DNA from: Candidatus Thorarchaeota archaeon
GTDB taxonomy: Archaea; Asgardarchaeota; Thorarchaeia; Thorarchaeales; Thorarchaeaceae
NCBI GenBank assembly: GCA_004524445.1
Contig: SDNP01000003.1
Location: forward strand, 32,001-96,000
Direction of reading: 5' to 3'
DNA length: 64,000 nucleotides
The translations under genes and the position numbers were made by a program. The notes under the pieces are model-generated. The model searched no databases. It was not told the DNA's origin and saw nothing but the letters and a program-made list of their open reading frames with translations. The stretch's first letter is position 1. Each line of letters begins with the position of its first letter. This document shows, piece by piece, positions 1 through 16,023 of this stretch.

Positions 1-511
1 CTCTCATGGCCTCATTTAATTCTTCTGAGGTCACCTCAGCTTCGGTTGTGGAATCGAAAGCTTCGCCCGCAATGCCGCTCTCAATTTCAAACTCCTCCAG
101 ACGCATGGCGATCTCGTCTGCATTTTCGATTACTTTGGATGTATCCGTGGCATCTCCGAGAAGACCCAATATATCTGCTACGTCATCAAGAGCTTTAGAT
201 GCCTTTGCAGTGGTTTGTGCTCGAGTTACATGAGCTAATATCTTCAAGATTTGAAGACGCGACTTGTCAATTGAAAGAGCGAAACGTCTGAACCTCACCA
301 TTTCTTGTGCATAGGTTCGAAATGCTTCCGTGTTTCCGTTCTTTCGTGCCTCGATTGCTCGCGCCTTCGTATCTCGTTCTTCCTTTTCCAACTTGTTTCT
401 CTGTCGTTCAAGCTGCTTTGATAGAACGCGAAGCTGACTCGTAACTTCGTTGATATCAGGCTTCTTTCGTCCCCATGAGAAGGCTTTCTTGAAGATACCC
501 AATCTGTTCAT
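1..511 (-). CDS. ESCRT-III protein, Vps2/24/46 (Snf7-family); 3' end runs off the window
   Basis: Not in the ORF track because it has no stop inside the window. Manual translation from ATG 511 (or TTG 502): MNRLGIFKKAFSWGRKKPDINEVTSQLRVLSKQLERQRNKLEKEERDTKARAIEARKNGNTEAFRTYAQEMVRFRR...RLEEFEIESGIAGEAFDS. Basic helical hairpin followed by an acidic region; divergent from vps4. Confidence 0.9.
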   Translation of the reverse strand, partial: MNRLGIFKKAFSWGRKKPDINEVTSQLRVLSKQLERQRNKLEKEERDTKARAIEARKNGNTEAFRTYAQEMVRFRRFALSIDKSRLQILKILAHVTRAQTTAKASKALDDVADILGLLGDATDTSKVIENADEIAMRLEEFEIESGIAGEAFDSTTEAEVTSEELNEAMR

Positions 512-702: not shown

Positions 703-1926
703 ATGACCGACACGAATGGAACTAGGCTCGATAAAGGCTTAAGAGAATTGCTCGACAGAGCTATCGATCTAGATCAGAGGGGGCTGAAGAAGGAAGCATG
801 CCAAAAATACCTGAAGGCCAGCAAAATTTTGATTAAACTCTCAAATGCAACAAGTCTCCCCTCCGTCCGTAAGCATTACCTCAAACGAGCGCAGGAGTGT
901 GTAGATAGAGTTCGTTATCTATCCGGCATTAGGAAGAAGACTCGAGGACCAGAATTCGGCCTCACAAGGCCAGTCACACCAATCCATGATGATAGCCAAA
1001 AAGGTGAAATGCCAGTTACCAGTCCAACTGAAGAGCAAGACGAAGATGAGATACGACTCAATGAGATGGTTTCTGATACAATTCTTTCCGAGCGCCCTGA
1101 TGTCAAGATGTCAGAAGTTGCAGGACTAAGCGATGCAAAGCAAGCAATCCATGATGCCATTATATCACCCATGAAACACCCGGAGTTCTTCAAAGGTAAG
1201 GCTAGGCAGCCTTGGAAGGGAATTCTGCTCTATGGACCTGCTGGATGTGGGAAGACACTAATCGCCAAAGCGGTTGCAAACGAAGTAAAAGCCACCTTTT
1301 TCAATGTATCAGCAGCGAATATAGTGAGTAAATGGCTAGGCGAGTCTGAGCGATTGGTTAAACACCTCTTCGATTCTGCGCGTAACAACCAACCATCAGT
1401 CATATTCATAGATGAGCTTGATTCTATAGGGGTTTCAAGACGGGGAGAAGATGTTGGAGGGGAACGAAGACTCAAGACACAATTGCTAACGGAGCTTCAA
1501 GGCCTAACAAGCAAGAGTGGCGAAAGAGTCACACTCATTGGGGCAACAAATCTTCCGTGGGACATCGATTTCGCCTTACGGTCCAGGTTTGAAAAGAGAA
1601 TTAATGTTCCACTCCCCGATAAAGCCGCAAGGGTCAGAATTTTCAAAATACATATTGATGACATTGAAGTCGCGCCGGATGTAGACTTCAATGAGCTTGC
1701 TGACTTGACAGAGGGATACAGCGGGAGGGATATCAGCGTGGTATGCAGAGAAGCCGCAATGGAACCTATCAGAGAATTGCAGAGCGATATTTCTCCATCG
1801 GAAAAAGCTTCGTTCAGATTGAGGCCTGTATCAAGATTGGATTTCCTTAATGCGATTGATAATATTCGCCCCGCAACATCCCCTGAAGACATTCGCAGAT
1901 ACAAAGAGTGGGCGGAGGGTTCATAG
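703..1926 (+). CDS. vps4: Vps4-type AAA+ ATPase with N-terminal MIT domain
   Basis: MIT-like N-terminus (LDRAIDLDQRG..EACQKY), PWKGILLYGPAGCGKT, pore loop SKWLGESE, Walker B IFIDELD, ATNLPWDID; ESCRT context. Confidence 0.95.
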   Translation: MTDTNGTRLDKGLRELLDRAIDLDQRGLKKEACQKYLKASKILIKLSNATSLPSVRKHYLKRAQECVDRVRYLSGIRKKTRGPEFGLTRPVTPIHDDSQKGEMPVTSPTEEQDEDEIRLNEMVSDTILSERPDVKMSEVAGLSDAKQAIHDAIISPMKHPEFFKGKARQPWKGILLYGPAGCGKTLIAKAVANEVKATFFNVSAANIVSKWLGESERLVKHLFDSARNNQPSVIFIDELDSIGVSRRGEDVGGERRLKTQLLTELQGLTSKSGERVTLIGATNLPWDIDFALRSRFEKRINVPLPDKAARVRIFKIHIDDIEVAPDVDFNELADLTEGYSGRDISVVCREAAMEPIRELQSDISPSEKASFRLRPVSRLDFLNAIDNIRPATSPEDIRRYKEWAEGS

Positions 1927-1929
1927 TTC

Positions 1930-2646
1930 GTGGGAGTTAGAGAGCGCAAGAAGGAGAAAAAGGAAAGCAAAGAAGAAGCTCGTTCAGAAGAAAAATCAGC
2001 TGAATCAAAAACCGATGAAATAACAGAGCAAGAAGTCCAACCGCTTGAAGGACCCAGTACTACACAGAAAGAAGACAAAACGACGACTGAACCTGAATCA
2101 CGCACTCAGGTCGTTGAAGAAACACCTGCCGAACGAGAGATGCTGTTGCCAACATGGGGCAGTGTAAATGAGTATGAATTGATGTACCATATACCTACTG
2201 GAGAAGACGACCGAGATCTCTGGGCAGATGAATGGGGAGATTTCCTCTTGGAGTGGGCACAAAAGAACACGGCACATAAAATATCACTAGTAACTTTCAT
2301 CACTGAACAACCATTCTCCGATATATTTGGAAAAGTGAAGGCATTCCGTCTGATAGCAGAAAAACTGGTTGACAAAGATGTGGCTGAATGGGTTGGAAGG
2401 AACAAGGGGCAGCTTCGGATTTACTGGAGACCCATAGAAGATTGGGCAGATATCATCTATGCATGGTCTATTGAAACAGGTAAGACTAGGTTGGATGTGA
2501 AGACACTAGTAATCCAAGAAAGCAGCCAGGATTTTGCAAGTCTGCCTGAAGATGAACTCAAAACCATCCTGGGCATTCTGGTGGAACAAGAACTCGCTGA
2601 ATGGGTAGACAAGAAACGAGCGGCAATAAGAATTCGTATTTCTTAG
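1930..2646 (+). CDS. vps25: ESCRT-II subunit Vps25 with charged N-terminal extension
   Basis: Tandem winged-helix pattern WADEWGDFLLEW...IYWRPIEDWADIIYAW; starts 3 nt after vps4. Confidence 0.88.
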   Translation: MGVRERKKEKKESKEEARSEEKSAESKTDEITEQEVQPLEGPSTTQKEDKTTTEPESRTQVVEETPAEREMLLPTWGSVNEYELMYHIPTGEDDRDLWADEWGDFLLEWAQKNTAHKISLVTFITEQPFSDIFGKVKAFRLIAEKLVDKDVAEWVGRNKGQLRIYWRPIEDWADIIYAWSIETGKTRLDVKTLVIQESSQDFASLPEDELKTILGILVEQELAEWVDKKRAAIRIRIS

Positions 2647-2660
2647 GCATAAAGACGGGA

Positions 2661-3464
2661 TTATAAACCATGAGCCGGGCGAGATTCTCGATTGTTTCTA
2701 CGTCTATCTAATATTTCATGATGGTCCTCTTTGTCCGATGCCTTGTGATGTAACCCGGGGAAGTAGTATCTACCGCCGGTACTAAAGCGAATATCAGCGA
2801 CCGCCATTCCGGCATCAACCAAACTCGATAATACTTGACGGGCGTGATCTTCAGACCACTTGAGTTCCATCATTACCTCTTCAACGGAGGTATAGCCCTT
2901 CGTGGCTGCAAGATTGACCACATCAGATTGATCGCCACGTAATTCCAATGGACGAAGCTCGACAACTTTGACGCCTCCCCGAAGTGTTCGTATTCCCGGA
3001 ATCAATCCGTTTTCTGCAACCCTATTGACAGCCTCTATCACATCATTATAGCTAACCGACTTAAACTGCGGCACACGATTAACAACCTCAACAATCAGGT
3101 CTGCAAGACCCATCAATCCTTTTGCCGAGTGTGTCGTGGCAACGTCGAGAACCGCCAATCCAAGATGGTCATAATATTCATCCATTGTGTATCCATCTAA
3201 GACGGGTCTGGCCCTGTTTTGGTAAAATTCGATTAATCCAGCTGCGTCTGGAAATTCATCTAAGATTCTTTGCTGTGCCATGAAGCCACCAACATCAATA
3301 CCCATGCGCCTCATCTCATCCAAATGCCCTTTCACTTCGCTGACTAACGCATCGGACTCCCGCTGGAATGACCTGATATCAACCGCGCCAAGGTCGTACA
3401 TCTTCTTGAGTTGATCTAAGGTAGCTATTGAAGCGTAAAGCTCCTGATGAATATGGTCATGCAT
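2661..3464 (-). CDS. ESCRT-II Vps22/36 (EAP30) protein with N-terminal Vps28-N-like domain
   Basis: C-terminal part YYDHLGLAVLDV..GLMGLADL..VSYNDVIEAV..PLELRGDQ..KGYTSVEEV..LKWSEDHARQVL..GRYYFPGL matches EAP30. Residues ~5-88 resemble the Vps28 N-terminal domain. Confidence 0.88.
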   Translation of the reverse strand: MHDHIHQELYASIATLDQLKKMYDLGAVDIRSFQRESDALVSEVKGHLDEMRRMGIDVGGFMAQQRILDEFPDAAGLIEFYQNRARPVLDGYTMDEYYDHLGLAVLDVATTHSAKGLMGLADLIVEVVNRVPQFKSVSYNDVIEAVNRVAENGLIPGIRTLRGGVKVVELRPLELRGDQSDVVNLAATKGYTSVEEVMMELKWSEDHARQVLSSLVDAGMAVADIRFSTGGRYYFPGLHHKASDKEDHHEILDRRRNNRESRPAHGL

Positions 3465-3650: not shown

Positions 3651-5012
3651 TCAAGGTGTGATCCTGTCACGGTCTCTAGGCAGCAGACTAGCCTCTCGGA
3701 TGTTCTCTATACCAAGCAACTGCATGGTCAAGCGCTCCACTCCTAGGCCAAGACCGCCATGGGGGGGAGCACCATATTTGAATGGGTCGAGATAGAAAAC
3801 AAATCGGTCAGGATCAAAGCCCTTAGCTTTGAATCTCTCAACAAGTAAATCGTAGAGATGGATTCTCTGTCCGCCCGTGGTGATTTCCATTCCCTTGTAC
3901 GTTAGGTCAAAGCTTTCGGTCATACCTCCGTCAGACATACTTGGCATTGTGTACGCAGGGCGAAGTTCCATAGGATAATGAGTTATGAATACCATGTCGG
4001 CACCGAATTTCTCAGGAAATATATCTGCAAGCATTCGTTCCGATTCTGGGTCTAGGTCATCTTCCAAGGTAATCTCTTTTCCAGCATCTTGTAATAAGCT
4101 GATAACTTCTGCATATTTGATTCTCTTGAAGGGTAGTCTAGGAACATTCAGATCAACCCCCAGAAGTTCCAGCTCCCGACTCGCCTCTTGCTTCGTCTTA
4201 CTAAACGCATGATGGAGCATCTGCTCTTCCATTTTCATCACATCTTCAACTCCACCAATCCATGCCATCTCAAAATCGAAGGAAGTGTACTCATTCATGT
4301 GTCGTGGAGTGTTGTGTTTTTCAGCTCTGAATACAGGTGCAATCTCAAAGACTCTTCCAAACCCGGCCAAGAGCATAAGTTGCTTGTAGAATTGAGGACT
4401 CTGGGCTAGATAGGCTGGCTTTTCAAAATACTTTATTTCAAAGAGGTTTGCTCCACCCTCTGTTGCTGCTGAAACAATTTTGGGAGTATGTATCTCAGTG
4501 AATTCATTCTGTTCAAGAAACTCACGTGCGAATCTGACCAGCGAGTGCTGAATCCGAAATATGGCATTCACTCTTGGTTTTCGGAGGTCTAGGATCCTGT
4601 AGTTCAGTCTCGTGTCCAGGTCTATGTCGACTTTTCCTTCAACTATATCGATAGGAATCGTTTCTGACCAGTTTAATACGCGGATTTCGGATGGAACAAC
4701 TTCAGCACCCGACGGAAGAAAATCTGTCGCAACAACTTCTCCTTTAACGAGCACAGCCGTTTCAGGCTTCAGGTTCTCTGAGATTTCAAAGACTTCTTCA
4801 GGTACCCTCTTTTTCGGGATGGTGATCTGAGTTGTTCCTCGCTCATCACGGAGAATGAGGAATTTTATCTTCCCCTTATCTCTGAGGATATGCACCCAAC
4901 CAACCAAAGTAACCTGTTCGCCAATAAGATCCTTTCCTATTTCATACGAATAGTGGTTTCTTCGATCCTTACCTATGGGGCTTACATCTGCCTGTTTGTA
5001 ATAATCCACCAT
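3651..5012 (-). CDS. aspS: Aspartyl-tRNA synthetase, archaeal type
   Basis: OB-fold GWVHILRDKG, LAQSPQFYKQ, motif 2 FRAEKHNT.RH, motif 3 PPHGGLGLGVERL. Confidence 0.96.
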   Translation of the reverse strand: MVDYYKQADVSPIGKDRRNHYSYEIGKDLIGEQVTLVGWVHILRDKGKIKFLILRDERGTTQITIPKKRVPEEVFEISENLKPETAVLVKGEVVATDFLPSGAEVVPSEIRVLNWSETIPIDIVEGKVDIDLDTRLNYRILDLRKPRVNAIFRIQHSLVRFAREFLEQNEFTEIHTPKIVSAATEGGANLFEIKYFEKPAYLAQSPQFYKQLMLLAGFGRVFEIAPVFRAEKHNTPRHMNEYTSFDFEMAWIGGVEDVMKMEEQMLHHAFSKTKQEASRELELLGVDLNVPRLPFKRIKYAEVISLLQDAGKEITLEDDLDPESERMLADIFPEKFGADMVFITHYPMELRPAYTMPSMSDGGMTESFDLTYKGMEITTGGQRIHLYDLLVERFKAKGFDPDRFVFYLDPFKYGAPPHGGLGLGVERLTMQLLGIENIREASLLPRDRDRITP

Positions 5013-11883: not shown

Positions 11884-14800
11884 CTAGAAGAAATCATCCA
11901 ATGTTGTGATTCCTAAGAGGCTATCAAAATCAATTCCCACTGATTCCAGGACCTGCTCGAAGACTGATCTCAATGTATCTATATACTTCTGCTTATCCAA
12001 CCAGTATTCTCCCTGATTTGCGAGCACTACAGGTAGCACCCCGTCCGCATCCTTTGTCTTAATATATTCAATGATAGTCCCACCCTCAACTTCATGCCCA
12101 GCGTCTTCCATCATCATTGCTGCTCTCACATGTTGTGGCAGGGTAGTACCATATTGAGAGATGGGTTTTGTCATCTGGATACGGAACGCAAGTTCTTCAG
12201 GGGAATAGGGTTCAGCTTTCCCCTCAAGTCTATCGATTACGCAGTTCACGATTTCGCGGATTTCATCCTTAGCTACTTCAAATCCTTCAGGGCTGTCCAC
12301 ATGAGCTAAGACTTCGAGCATTTCCCGGAATGCTTCTTGAATGAATTCGGGCGTGTTCCTCTTTTTGCCACTGAGCCCCTTTACCTCAACATAACCAGAA
12401 TCATAGACCCCAATGTAGTTCTTTTTGCGATCTGAGAGAGCAACATACTTGTATGTCTTCTCCACTTCCAGGTCTATCTCCAGTTCTTGTCGTGACCATT
12501 CAATGAGCTGTCGTTGTTGTTCTTCTGTTGGACTATCAAGGAAAACTGAGTCAGTGTCCCCATACAATACTCGCACGCCCATGGACTCGGCCTTCTCTTT
12601 GGTGCGAATAATTGCGTCTCGGCCATAGGCAGTAACGCTCTCGGCAGCGGGCATACAGAACAGCTCGAAGTGTTGGGCCCCTGTCACACCATAGCTATTG
12701 TGAACTACAATTCCGTTGGTCGATACAAACAACCCATTCCCAGTTTCCAAGTCGTAGGTTTGTTCAGAATGGTCACTCTTTTGTATCGAGCGAATCCTTA
12801 CTGCATGTGTGCCATTAAAATCAGTCAATCCTCGGCCCGTTCGCCGATACTTTAGCCCTTTGCTTTCCACAATACGATACATTGATTCTTCGCGATGAAC
12901 AGATGCATGTTTCCCAAGTGCGGCTAACAGGTAAAGAATGTCATAAGCTAGTTCTTTGCTCGATGTCGAATATCGCCTAGCACCGCGAGTATTGATATTC
13001 CCATCGCCCTTGAAGAACGAATCTAGAACAATGCCTGCTCTCTCCTTATCAAGGAGGTGAATTGGGATAGATTTGTTCCGGGACCTGTTACCACAGAGGG
13101 ATTCCATGACTGCTGCAAGTATTTTCGAGTGAATGACATGGTCCTTCTCCGAATATATCGCAAAGGGCAGTTCCATCCGTTGTAAGAGGGTTCCGATCTG
13201 CTTGAAATAAGTAGGATTGACTTCCTGATACTGTGAAATCGACACCCGATTAACGCCCACATGTCCTTCAGAAAGATACCAGCCCATAAATGCGAAGAAA
13301 TCTTCATCAAGCTTAATTCTGATGTTTTCCCATTTGCCGGCCTCACGCCATCTACCACTGCTTTCAATCAGTTTTAGGTAGAAAGGTGGTGCACCTGATT
13401 CGTGTTCTCTAATCATATTCTTGGCTTCTGCGGATAGGTCATTCCATCGTGCGCGATACCACCTGCTAGCCTTTGAATATCTGAATTCTTCGTTAATTAG
13501 TGAAATCAGAGGGTTCTCTGTTCGTTGGGAACGTCGATACGAGAACTTTGTGTAGTCTTTTCTTCTTATTCCGACATGAATGGATTCCTCAGGGATGACG
13601 TCCGGAATGAATAATGTTTCAGGAGGTCTTGGTGAAAGCGGAGTCTGCTCCAGCATGAGGAGATTATCGTCTATCCGGAGATCTTCGGCCGCAACATACC
13701 GGATTGAGAGAGGCTTCTTGGCAATTGCCTTTCGGTTCTTCCGTGTGTTTTTGGGAAGGAGTTTCGGCAAGACATGGTTGACCGTGCATCGGATAGTGCG
13801 TCCGTCTCGGAGGCAGATGTTGAGAATTGATGCGGGTCCATTCTTCCGAAATCCGACAATAGGAACGAATACTGGTTTTCCAAAGGATGAAGATTCCCAT
13901 TCATTATCAATGCTTAGAATCTCAAGATTGCGCCATTCATCTTCTAAGCTGCCAATAGGTTTCTTCGATACAAGACCTTGGGAATCCCGGACCACTACTT
14001 CTTCGTTGAAAGGAAGACAGGCATTAACGAACACCTTAAGCGCTTTCTCGACAACTGAGTACCAGTTTCGTAACCCTTGATTTAGATTTGTGTCCTTGCT
14101 CTTTCCCTTAAACCATTTGACTCGGGTATCTCGAAAGAAGCCGATAGTCTGACTAATCATGCCGACATTCTTCTTGCATGTCCAATGATCTGTTTCAGGC
14201 ACTCGATTGTCCTCTGCCTTCTCACAGGATTCATGGGGACAATCAACTGTTTCATAACTGATATTGTGTGTCTTCATTATTGTGGGATAGAGACTGGCAA
14301 AGTCAAGAACTGTGGCTCCAAAATGCACTCCCGCCACTGGCTCAATAACAATAGCACCTTTGAATGCCTTGTCCTTTATCATGGCCTCAGTGTGAGCATC
14401 ACTCGATTTCAGTTCTCGAATCTCGCGTTGTTTCGGAATCAAGGCATTTCGTGAACGATGCTCCTGCCGAAAGAGCGATTGAATCCATGTTGATATTCCA
14501 AAGCGAGTCACATCTTCCATTGATAAGCGGGAAATTCGCATTAGAAGAACGATGAGCCGTAGCAGTAGATTTTCATTGTATTGAGTGACTCTCAGCGTTA
14601 TATTGGAGTCTAGCCAGCAGTAGTGAGCTAGTTCATAATATCCAAGTCTAGAAATCTCGTCGCTTAGCTCAAGTTTGCCTACATTAAGAAGACCTTGCCC
14701 GATGGATTCGAGATTGTTTCGCTCATATGCTCCTGAAAGCGCATACAATCGAACTGAGGGGTTCTTGAGGAACCTGTAGAGGTCAATGTGGATACCACCG

Positions 14801-16023
14801 TCAAGCAGTGCGATGTCCCTGCCTAATCGTATTGGACAATATTTGTCAACATCGATGCCCAGACGTTCTGCACGATTATAAAGATAGGTCAGATCGAAAG
14901 CATCTCCGACGAACGTCAAGACAATCGGATATTTGTCCAGCATTCTGAATGTTTGCATGAGCATTTCTCGTTCGTCTTCGTAAAAGACAACATTCAGTTC
15001 TTCAGGAAACTCTTCATGCTTTTCGCCTTCTTCCAAGTCAGCCCTCTTTAAAACAAAGCACTTGTTCATTCCTTGATTATCGGAGAGTCCTACCGCTGTG
15101 ACTGCCTGCGGAGCCCGATTGGCATCGGGAATTCTATTGCTCTTCTCTGAATAAACTTCTATGTCAACTGCAATTCGTTTGATATCAGGTACTTCCGTGA
15201 AGAACATAGGTGCGTAATTGTCTATCACACCTCCAAAGTATTCAACATCACCAATTGTTTTCTTGAACTCGTCTAAAGTTTCTTGGTCCAGTTGGGGAGG
15301 GCAGGGAACAAGATCTCCATTTACAATCTTGTATCGCATCCCGCATACGAGTTCGCGGTCATAACAGAAGTTGTTATGGTAACGGATATTGGCTTCCCAC
15401 GCATGACTTATGGTTTCACCCGTTGGCCCAGATCTCGTTGTTAAAAGCTCACGAATTGCGCCAGCAGTCCCGCCAATACTCAATGGATCAGTGGCATAAA
15501 TTTTAGTCATCTCGCGTGTTTCATCTCGTAGAAGGTCCTGTACTGTTTCAGATTCTAATGAGACAAAGCCACGATGATGCCGGACCTTCTTTTCAGCAGT
15601 TTGTGGAGGAAGGTCAGTAAGGCAATAAGGTAGATGGCCTGTATTATCATGCCAGAAGTAGATTCTCTCAGTTTCTGGATTGTACAGCCGCGCTATAGCT
15701 TTCTTCTGAGAGCCATCATAGTCCACAGATAATAGGTAGGAGGGGTCCAGATTTTCTGGTTCTTCTCTTAGTCCAGCAATATAATCATTAGCAATGCTTT
15801 CGTCATCTTCGAAAGTCATGCTTTCCGGGTTAATTATTATTGCAGAATTCTCACGGGAAGGGTCTTCTTTTTCCGTTGTTCTCTGTTTTACTGGCTCAGC
15901 TTCCTCAGAGGGCGATTTCGAGCCTGTTTTCCCGTCCTCTTTTGCCTCAGTTTCAATTAACATGAAGTCCTCTAAAGAAGACTGATTGCTTTCGTCATCA
16001 TGTTCGCGATTCAACCGGGGCAC
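11884..16023 (-). CDS. polB1: Family B DNA polymerase, PolB1 type, containing one intein
   Basis: LLSVDYDG..DNTGH.PY (PolB1 N-terminus), ExoI AVDIEV, DFASLYPT, KVFVNA|SYG, YGDTDS, KKNY. Confidence 0.95.
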   Translation of the reverse strand: MPRLNREHDDESNQSSLEDFMLIETEAKEDGKTGSKSPSEEAEPVKQRTTEKEDPSRENSAIIINPESMTFEDDESIANDYIAGLREEPENLDPSYLLSVDYDGSQKKAIARLYNPETERIYFWHDNTGHLPYCLTDLPPQTAEKKVRHHRGFVSLESETVQDLLRDETREMTKIYATDPLSIGGTAGAIRELLTTRSGPTGETISHAWEANIRYHNNFCYDRELVCGMRYKIVNGDLVPCPPQLDQETLDEFKKTIGDVEYFGGVIDNYAPMFFTEVPDIKRIAVDIEVYSEKSNRIPDANRAPQAVTAVGLSDNQGMNKCFVLKRADLEEGEKHEEFPEELNVVFYEDEREMLMQTFRMLDKYPIVLTFVGDAFDLTYLYNRAERLGIDVDKYCPIRLGRDIALLDGGIHIDLYRFLKNPSVRLYALSGAYERNNLESIGQGLLNVGKLELSDEISRLGYYELAHYCWLDSNITLRVTQYNENLLLRLIVLLMRISRLSMEDVTRFGISTWIQSLFRQEHRSRNALIPKQREIRELKSSDAHTEAMIKDKAFKGAIVIEPVAGVHFGATVLDFASLYPTIMKTHNISYETVDCPHESCEKAEDNRVPETDHWTCKKNVGMISQTIGFFRDTRVKWFKGKSKDTNLNQGLRNWYSVVEKALKVFVNACLPFNEEVVVRDSQGLVSKKPIGSLEDEWRNLEILSIDNEWESSSFGKPVFVPIVGFRKNGPASILNICLRDGRTIRCTVNHVLPKLLPKNTRKNRKAIAKKPLSIRYVAAEDLRIDDNLLMLEQTPLSPRPPETLFIPDVIPEESIHVGIRRKDYTKFSYRRSQRTENPLISLINEEFRYSKASRWYRARWNDLSAEAKNMIREHESGAPPFYLKLIESSGRWREAGKWENIRIKLDEDFFAFMGWYLSEGHVGVNRVSISQYQEVNPTYFKQIGTLLQRMELPFAIYSEKDHVIHSKILAAVMESLCGNRSRNKSIPIHLLDKERAGIVLDSFFKGDGNINTRGARRYSTSSKELAYDILYLLAALGKHASVHREESMYRIVESKGLKYRRTGRGLTDFNGTHAVRIRSIQKSDHSEQTYDLETGNGLFVSTNGIVVHNSYGVTGAQHFELFCMPAAESVTAYGRDAIIRTKEKAESMGVRVLYGDTDSVFLDSPTEEQQRQLIEWSRQELEIDLEVEKTYKYVALSDRKKNYIGVYDSGYVEVKGLSGKKRNTPEFIQEAFREMLEVLAHVDSPEGFEVAKDEIREIVNCVIDRLEGKAEPYSPEELAFRIQMTKPISQYGTTLPQHVRAAMMMEDAGHEVEGGTIIEYIKTKDADGVLPVVLANQGEYWLDKQKYIDTLRSVFEQVLESVGIDFDSLLGITTLDDFF
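12697..14019 (-). mobile_element. Intein (441 aa) with LAGLIDADG homing endonuclease in PolB1 motif B
   Basis: Begins CLPFNEEV, block B CTVNH, LAGLIDADG-like FMGWYLSEG and LDSFFKGDG, ends TYDLET..VVHN followed by Ser+1. Removal restores KVFVNASYG. Confidence 0.95.

What the first reader, a model, noticed from the sequence alone, without database searches (positions are those of the whole stretch)
2661..3464. Apparent ESCRT-I/ESCRT-II fusion: Vps28 N-terminal domain joined to Vps22/36 (EAP30)
Seen: residues ~5-88 read QELYASIATLDQLKKMYDLGAVDIRSFQRESDALVSEVK..DVGGFMAQQRILDEFPDAAGLI..RP, ahead of a clear EAP30 tandem winged-helix region. From memory, human VPS28 N-terminus reads [59 protein letters not shown]..RP, and the spacing and hydrophobic pattern line up along the whole domain. 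Established: the Vps28 N-terminal hairpin builds the ESCRT-I headpiece, while the Vps28 C-terminal domain docks non-covalently on ESCRT-II. Inference: this protein replaces that docking step with a covalent link. My recollection is that Thorarchaeia are usually described as lacking ESCRT-I and ubiquitin, which would make a hidden ESCRT-I module notable; that needs a literature check.
Basis: partly seen in the sequence, partly recalled or inferred. Interest (0 to 1): 0.88.

Follow-up and report, generated by a model that had tools for sequence, protein, structure and literature searches.

The report
Thorarchaeal Vps28-head/Vps22 fusion, already published
This Thorarchaeota gene does join the front domain of the ESCRT-I protein Vps28 to the winged-helix body of the ESCRT-II protein Vps22, probably linking two membrane-sorting complexes in one chain, but a 2024 survey already reported this fusion for a Thorarchaeota Vps22.

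Summary
Observation confirmed; not new. The 267-aa ORF (2661-3464, minus strand) has a Vps28 N-terminal domain (residues 2-84) ahead of Vps22 tandem winged helices (93-238). A profile of that domain retrieves full-length Vps28 proteins, and its model best matches human and yeast Vps28-N (Z 11.5, rmsd 2.0, 80 aligned).

Makarova et al. 2024 (PMC10936438, Table S3) list Thorarchaeota Vps22 KXH75178.1 residues 1-70 as VPS28 N-terminal domain, HHpred 99%. This scan has also noted the fusion in several other genomes.

Refinements shown here:
- In the genomes sampled the fusion was found only in the Thorarchaeal order, not across Asgard archaea as the paper's text says; 23 of 24 other Asgard Vps22 proteins keep the ordinary N-terminus.
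- Vps28-N replaces that N-terminus.
- No separate full-length vps28 was found in Thorarchaeal genomes, while vps28 lies just upstream of vps22 in 73 of 88 other Asgard genomes. This suggests an in-frame operon collapse (inferred).
- Likely partner: the steadiness box of the neighbouring Zn-ribbon/PH/coiled-coil protein (complex model 0.67, best control 0.16; may pass by likeness to solved Vps23:Vps28).

The parts
2661..3464 (-). Vps28N-Vps22 fusion gene, 267 aa (orthologue of ThorAB25_09030/OLS30571.1 and of SMTZ1-45 Vps22)
   Evidence: ORF; 70% and 71% identity over 247 aa to those two proteins
3213..3461 (-). Vps28 N-terminal domain, residues 2-84: steadiness-box hairpin (helices 2-24, 30-53) plus the short helices 58-64, 67-70, 72-84 that Vps28-N has and the Vps23 box lacks
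   Evidence: invariant A11 A14 T15 L16 D17 Q18 L40 G55 F61 F71 A74
3189..3212 (-). Variable linker, about residues 85-92; inferred fusion junction
   Evidence: low pLDDT near 83-85, block mean 57 for 81-90; variable sequence but fixed spacing, 26 residues between flanking motifs in 109 of 117 homologues
2751..3188 (-). Vps22 (SNF8/EAP30) tandem winged-helix core, residues 93-238
   Evidence: Pfam EAP30 E 8.8e-14; human SNF8 E 9e-16 over residues 95-240; Foldseek 2zme_A E 1e-8
1930..2646 (+). Vps25 (ESCRT-II), convergent with the fusion gene
   Evidence: Pfam ESCRT-II E 4.9e-13; adjacent in 30 of 30 Thorarchaeal loci
703..1926 (+). Vps4 ATPase (MIT, AAA, Vps4_C)
1..511 (-). ESCRT-III (Snf7), 207 aa, runs off the window's left edge. 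Just beyond it, at L001:10327-11886 (+), lies the 519-aa Zn-ribbon/coiled-coil/PH/steadiness-box gene, the likely partner

Best explanation
The protein is the Thorarchaeal Vps22, an ESCRT-II subunit whose normal N-terminal helices have been replaced by the N-terminal domain of Vps28 (shown). It most likely arose once, early in the Thorarchaeal order, by an in-frame deletion across the ancestral vps28-vps22 gene pair (inferred). That deletion removed the Vps28 C-terminal domain, any small Vps28C-like gene in between, and the Vps22 N-terminal helices. In eukaryotes Vps28-C docks on ESCRT-II, so the covalent link would stand in for that step (inferred). Proposed pathway: the Vps28-N hairpin pairs with the steadiness box of the neighbouring Zn-ribbon/PH/coiled-coil protein, as Vps28-N pairs with Vps23 (modelled, not measured). 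That protein takes the place of the lost UEV-Vps23 and probably binds membrane through its PH domain, without ubiquitin (inferred). The winged helices then recruit Vps25, ESCRT-III and Vps4 (by analogy with known ESCRT-II).
For: Domain identity. Replacement: a Vps28-N HMM scores all 121 Thorarchaeal proteins at 28-70 bits, while a Vps22 N-terminus HMM scores at most 5.1 bits and a Vps28-C HMM at most 2.8 bits. Restriction: 23 of 24 non-Thorarchaeal Asgard Vps22 proteins keep the ordinary N-terminus; independently, Pfam EAP30 matches from profile position 2 in 5 of 7 tested, and one aligns to human SNF8 from residue 8. No separate vps28: 42 of 45 Thorarchaeal-order genomes match a Vps28 profile, 40 with exactly one match; where coordinates are listed it is the fused N-domain. 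Ancestral adjacency: vps28 lies upstream of vps22 on the same strand in 73 of 88 other Asgard genomes (gene maps). Ubiquitin found in 0 of 41 Thorarchaeal-order genomes and UQ_con over cut-off in 0 of 41, against 5 of 5 controls for both. Partner: found in 56 of 61 genomes; its best natural steadiness-box match is yeast Vps23 (weak, E 0.22). Complex model 0.67 against best control 0.16; that mark was reached by 58 of 80 solved complexes and 2 of 110 mismatched pairs; runs agree in at least 98% of contacts; partner pLDDT at least 74. Invariant residues of both families form the modelled interface (A11, A14, T15, Q18 against F40, I41, Y44, R49 of the 70-aa fragment).
Against: The complex may pass by likeness to the solved Vps23-C:Vps28-N structures (2f6m, 6vme), and close cousins of a true partner also pass this test; other steadiness-box-like proteins in the genome (e.g. 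L073:2078-2455) were not tested. Hatano's two-hybrid result for the Thorarchaeal SB/Vps22 pair is in a figure I could not read; the text reports only Thorarchaeal Vps22 self-interaction and an SB protein that 'may interact with Vps28'. Vps28-C-like domains survive elsewhere in Thorarchaeota (BAR-Vps28), and a ~780-aa Vps22 paralogue keeping part of the N-terminal helices occurs in 33 of 41 genomes, so non-covalent docking may persist in parallel. The ~85-aa tree puts the fused domains on one side of a branch (92/86) but names no donor lineage. Genomes are incomplete MAGs and related genomes are not independent.
Confidence: 0.68

Rival explanations
1. The Vps28-N domain mainly acts as a self-association module: it took over the dimerising role of the lost Vps22 N-terminal helices, making a Vps22 homodimer rather than bridging to an ESCRT-I partner.
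For: Thorarchaeal Vps22 self-interacts in two-hybrid assays (Hatano 2022). In Heimdallarchaeal Vps22 one dimer crosslink maps to residues 41-47, the region replaced here.
Against: The conserved face is the ELYAxIATLD helix shared with full-length Asgard Vps28, which partners Vps23 in known complexes. That face forms the modelled heterodimer interface. The self-interaction could come from the winged helices, where the second Heimdallarchaeal crosslink (160-167) lies.
Confidence: 0.15
2. The domain binds a different steadiness-box protein (the free-standing ~125-aa protein beside longin/GTPase genes, a BAR fusion, or several alternative adaptors), making Vps22 a hub for GTPase-linked adaptors.
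For: The Vps28-N HMM finds further weak steadiness-box-like hairpins in this genome (C38:62580-63011, C61:3409-6423; E 0.14-0.16). Makarova 2024 propose that multidomain SB proteins bind SB motifs of ESCRT-I.
Against: Only the Zn-ribbon/PH/SB gene lies in the ESCRT cluster. It is the best non-self hit of the HMM in the genome (E 0.04), and its steadiness box is highly conserved. This rival is compatible with the main model.
Confidence: 0.12
3. The SB-Vps22 architecture is ancestral to all Asgard Vps22 proteins, as the text of Makarova 2024 generalises, or the domain is just a diverged ordinary Vps22 N-terminus.
For: [quoted passage not shown] Both N-termini are helical and about 85 aa long.
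Against: The only Vps22 evidence in that paper's Table S3 is one Thorarchaeal protein. Non-Thorarchaeal Vps22 proteins score at most 5.8 bits with the Vps28-N HMM and match eukaryotic SNF8 from the start. The two N-terminal profiles do not align (0.3%).
Confidence: 0.05

Closest known systems
Thorarchaeota Vps22 KXH75178.1, 'Vps22#' / SB-fused Vps22, asCOG cog.002769 (Makarova et al. 2024, mBio, PMC10936438, text and Table S3)
   Same: Same architecture: residues 1-70 hit PF03997 VPS28 N-terminal domain at HHpred 99%. That accession sits three numbers from the SMTZ1-45 ESCRT-III KXH75181, and the SMTZ1-45 protein now in NCBI (MHA3962393.1) is 71% identical to this one. I did not retrieve KXH75178.1 itself.
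   Different: The paper states the fusion for Asgard Vps22 in general and calls it an addition. Here it was found only in the Thorarchaeal order, it replaces the normal N-terminus, and it goes with the absence of a separate vps28. I found none of these points, nor the operon-collapse origin, in the papers read.
ThorAB25_09030 'Vps22' and ThorAB25_08990 'SB' (Hatano et al. 2022, Nat Commun, PMC9192718)
   Same: Orthologues in the same cluster; ThorAB25_09030 is 70% identical. Both were tested by two-hybrid, and Vps22 self-interacts.
   Different: The passages I read treat the protein as plain Vps22 and do not mention a Vps28-N domain.
Eukaryotic Vps28 N-terminal domain in the ESCRT-I headpiece (PDB 2f6m, 2caz, 2p22, 6vme)
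   Same: Same fold over 80 residues (Z 11.5, rmsd 2.0) and the same conserved first helix.
   Different: In eukaryotes it is followed by the C-terminal bundle that docks on ESCRT-II; here the Vps22 winged helices follow directly.
Heimdallarchaeal UEV-Vps23-Vps28 fusion (Hatano 2022)
   Same: A lineage-specific fusion of neighbouring genes in the same vps23-vps28-vps22 run (L067).
   Different: It fuses two ESCRT-I subunits, keeps Vps28-C and binds ubiquitin. The Thorarchaeal fusion crosses the ESCRT-I/II boundary in a lineage where ubiquitin was not found.

Membership tests
Vps22/SNF8 (EAP30) | Tandem winged-helix core | tested here: met
Vps22/SNF8 (EAP30) | N-terminal helix and helical domain ahead of the first winged helix | tested here: not met
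   EAP30 match starts at profile position 83; N-terminus HMM at most 5.1 bits on 121 homologues; hhalign 0.3%
Vps22/SNF8 (EAP30) | Binds Vps25 and dimerises | not testable with these tools
   vps25 adjacent in 30 of 30 loci; published two-hybrid self-interaction of the orthologue
Vps36 | GLUE/PH domain on the same chain; closer to Vps36 than to Vps22 | tested here: not met
   No PH domain; PDB sequence hits are SNF8 only; Foldseek ranks SNF8 chains above Vps36 chains
Vps28 | N-terminal steadiness-box hairpin plus the short following helices | tested here: met
Vps28 | C-terminal helical bundle that docks on ESCRT-II | tested here: not met
   Vps28-C HMM at most 2.8 bits on 121 homologues; winged helices start about 9 residues after the N-domain
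Vps28 | Binds a Vps23-type steadiness box | tested here: inconclusive
   Model supports but does not show binding: 0.67 against best control 0.16; may reflect solved Vps23:Vps28
Thorarchaeal SB-Vps22 of Makarova 2024 (cog.002769) | VPS28-type N-terminal domain at residues ~1-70 of a Thorarchaeal Vps22 in the ESCRT cluster | tested here: met
Ubiquitin-coupled Asgard ESCRT pathway | Ubiquitin and UEV/E2 genes in the genome | tested here: not met
   Not found in 41 Thorarchaeal-order genomes including this one (90% complete); found in 5 of 5 control Asgard genomes

The most novel reading that the evidence does not exclude
Thorarchaeota run a streamlined, ubiquitin-free ESCRT pathway made by one in-frame deletion that merged vps28 and vps22, with the Zn-ribbon/PH/coiled-coil/SB protein replacing UEV-Vps23 as the headpiece partner. 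This would be a natural single-chain ESCRT-I/II bridge, and it would correct the published statement that all Asgard Vps22 proteins carry a steadiness box.
Probability: 0.6. Interest if true: 0.42.

Novelty: already known. Interest (0 to 1): 0.2.

Why it matters
The domain fusion itself is published, so it adds little. The refinements have modest value for people tracing ESCRT evolution. The ancestral Asgard Vps22 looks eukaryote-like, and the SB fusion appears to be a derived Thorarchaeal trait that goes with the loss of ubiquitin and UEV-Vps23. The locus also offers a small system for asking how ESCRT-I/II is recruited without ubiquitin, and a direct pairwise binding test.

Tried and rejected
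1. Single-sequence tests of residues 1-90 were inconclusive (Pfam VPS28 E 0.12, behind a HisKA_3 hit at 0.058); profiles and structure settled it.
2. Whole-genome searches with Pfam VPS28 and Vps23_core found nothing even for the known domain, so they are too insensitive to show absence; custom Asgard profiles were used instead.
3. Foldseek of the full-length model is dominated by the winged helices and says nothing on the N-domain.
4. 'Ordinary Vps22 N-terminus' and 'pan-Asgard SB-Vps22' were rejected.
5. A possible free Vps28-C-like protein (L072:2071-2592, 173 aa) stays unresolved: HMM E 0.002, hhalign 9.7%, Atlas uninformative. A second candidate (C64:32009-33532) looks like a cysteinyl-tRNA synthetase from its sequence and is taken as noise.
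6. The tree of the N-domain could not name a donor lineage.
7. A literature search for Vps28 interface mutants recalled from memory found nothing and is not used. No 2024+ paper with Thorarchae*, Vps28, Vps22 and 'fused' was found.
8. The promoter/terminator scan gave nothing above chance and does not cover archaeal promoters.

Full report
Observation. The ORF at 2661-3464 (minus strand, 267 aa) is real and the quoted residues are exact. It lies in an ESCRT cluster with Vps25 (1930-2646 +), Vps4 (703-1926 +) and ESCRT-III (runs off the left edge). Just outside the window is a 519-aa Zn-ribbon/coiled-coil/PH/steadiness-box gene (L001:10327-11886). The 120 listed homologues are 56-93% identical, and most of the named ones are Thorarchaeota. 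Residues 92-224 match Pfam EAP30 from profile position 83 onward. The closest solved structure is human SNF8/Vps22 (E 9e-16), so this is Vps22, not Vps36.

The N-terminal domain is Vps28-N. Alone it gives only Pfam VPS28 E 0.12, but family-level tests agree. It is strongly conserved (mean top-residue frequency 0.80 over residues 5-50). VPS28 is the commonest Pfam hit among 29 homologous N-domains (22 of 29). The profile's top natural PDB hits are yeast Vps28-N chains (E 0.17-0.33). Against 1.84 billion proteins it retrieves full-length Vps28 and UEV-Vps28 proteins over positions ~5-84, and hhalign against these gives 99.0% (partly circular). The model of residues 1-88 (pLDDT 89) has Vps28-N as its top 11 Foldseek hits. 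In an exhaustive structural scan it scores Z 11.5 (rmsd 2.0, 80 aligned) with human and Z 9.1 with yeast Vps28-N; the Vps23 box scores Z 7.0 over the hairpin only. It is therefore the Vps28 type of steadiness box, including the short helices after the hairpin.

It is already published. Makarova et al. 2024 (PMC10936438) write that Asgard Vps22 family proteins 'are fused to an SB'. The SMTZ1-45 protein now in NCBI is 71% identical to this one, and ThorAB25_09030, used as 'Vps22' by Hatano et al. 2022 (PMC9192718), is 70% identical. Earlier reports in this scan reached the same verdict on other genomes; I had found the paper before looking at them.

Refinement 1: lineage-restricted replacement. 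In a 201-genome Asgard sample the fused form was seen only in the window's family and in the one genome of the sister family of the same order (L032/L052; Pfam VPS28 26.6 bits, over cut-off). Of 24 Vps22 proteins examined from other families, 23 have the ordinary N-terminus and one long form has neither domain; none showed a Vps28-N match (best 5.8 bits among those scored; none at E<0.1). Sixteen of the 24 built that HMM, so I checked independently. Pfam EAP30 matches from profile position 2 in 5 of 7 tested, and one aligns to human SNF8 from residue 8. Conversely, all 121 Thorarchaeal proteins score 28-70 bits for Vps28-N, at most 5.1 for the Vps22 N-terminus and at most 2.8 for Vps28-C. The paper's pan-Asgard wording therefore over-generalises from one Thorarchaeal example.

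Refinement 2: probable origin. A full-length Vps28 profile matches 42 of 45 Thorarchaeal-order genomes. In 40 of these there is exactly one match, and where coordinates are listed it is the fused N-domain; two genomes have an unlisted second match. The three without a match also lack the fused gene, which points to assembly gaps. In other Asgard genomes where both matches were listed, vps28 lies upstream of vps22 on the same strand in 73 of 88 (70 within 800 bp); 10 of the 15 exceptions are one family. The lists were truncated, one large weak-scoring family is excluded, and kin are not independent. Gene maps show vps23-like, vps28, an optional small Vps28C-like gene, then vps22, versus a single Vps28N-Vps22 gene in Thorarchaeota. 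The simplest history is one in-frame deletion across that pair (inference). The fused domains form one side of a branch (92/86), but the tree names no donor.

Mechanism. Ubiquitin was not found in 41 Thorarchaeal-order genomes and UQ_con only once below cut-off, against 5 of 5 controls. This agrees with Hatano 2022 and with Lu et al. 2023, who report no UEV-Vps23 in Thorarchaeia. Yet the Vps23-binding helix of the fused domain is nearly invariant, which implies a partner. The clustered Zn-ribbon/PH/SB protein occurs in 56 of 61 genomes and has a conserved box whose best natural steadiness-box match is yeast Vps23 (weak). The complex model scored 0.67 against a best control of 0.16; that mark was reached by 58 of 80 solved complexes and 2 of 110 mismatched pairs; runs agreed in at least 98% of contacts, and partner pLDDT was at least 74. 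The interface pairs invariant residues of both families. A like complex is solved (2f6m), so the pass shows likeness, not binding. Membrane binding by the PH domain and recruitment of Vps25, ESCRT-III and Vps4 are inferred by analogy.

Caveats. Vps28-C-like domains persist elsewhere in Thorarchaeota. A ~780-aa Vps22 paralogue keeping part of the ordinary N-terminal helices occurs in 33 of 41 genomes but was not found in this 90%-complete assembly. Non-covalent docking may therefore survive in a parallel route. The published two-hybrid self-interaction leaves open a dimerising role for the domain.

Verdict. A correct and well-read observation, but a rediscovery. The added points (restriction to one order, replacement rather than addition, operon collapse, modelled partner) are modest refinements. 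Interest 0.2; novelty: already known.

Noticed in passing
L071:2623-4962 (G075): A ~780-aa second Vps22/EAP30 paralogue: long coiled-coil N-terminus, a CarboxypepD_reg-like beta domain, part of the Vps22 N-terminal helices and tandem winged helices, near a small-GTPase gene with a longin-like N-terminus. Found in 33 of 41 Thorarchaeal-order genomes but not in this assembly. Candidate Vps36-like partner.
   Followed up: partly
L001:10327-11886 (+), just left of the window: Zn-ribbon/coiled-coil/PH/steadiness-box protein (Makarova's Znr_PH_CC_SB; Hatano's ThorAB25_08990 'SB'), the likely partner of the fused domain.
   Followed up: yes
L066:14401-16206 (G053): A 601-aa Zn-ribbon/coiled-coil/PH protein ending in EAP30 winged helices (Pfam Vps36_ESCRT-II E 1.8e-4, EAP30 E 1.8e-11): a Vps36-like arrangement in another Asgard family.
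   Followed up: partly
L073:2078-2455 (-), G000 contig C38: A 125-aa protein ending in a steadiness-box-like hairpin (E 0.16), in a run with coiled-coil genes and a GTPase with a longin-like N-terminus. Possible alternative partner.
   Followed up: partly
L072:2071-2592 (+), G000 contig C20: A 173-aa protein whose last ~45 residues resemble the end of Vps28-C (HMM E 0.002; hhalign 9.7%); belongs to an unnamed archaeal cluster. Unresolved.
   Followed up: partly
L074:916-3927 (+), G000 contig C61: A 1003-aa membrane protein with a steadiness-box-like hairpin at about residues 290-330 between transmembrane segments (E 0.14). A possible membrane anchor for the ESCRT headpiece; untested.
   Followed up: no
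L053-L055, L061, L062, L067: In several non-Thorarchaeal Asgard families a small (95-120 aa) Vps28C-like gene sits between vps28 and vps22, as Makarova 2024 noted.
   Followed up: partly
L048:267-1277 (G193, family f22): A 337-aa Vps22 with a long N-terminus matching neither Vps28-N nor the ordinary Vps22 helices; in this family vps28 is on a different contig in all 10 genomes. A second independent remodelling.
   Followed up: no
window 3651-5012 (-): Aspartyl-tRNA synthetase-like gene (by sequence) directly upstream of the fusion gene on the same strand, where vps23/vps28 sit in other Asgard archaea; adjacent in 28 of 30 Thorarchaeal loci.
   Followed up: partly
window 11884-16023 (-): Family B DNA polymerase that appears to carry an intein (from the translation); not tested.
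   Followed up: no
G155:C13:104460-105196: In one Thorarchaeal genome the fusion gene appears in three pieces, probably frameshift errors of assembly.
   Followed up: no
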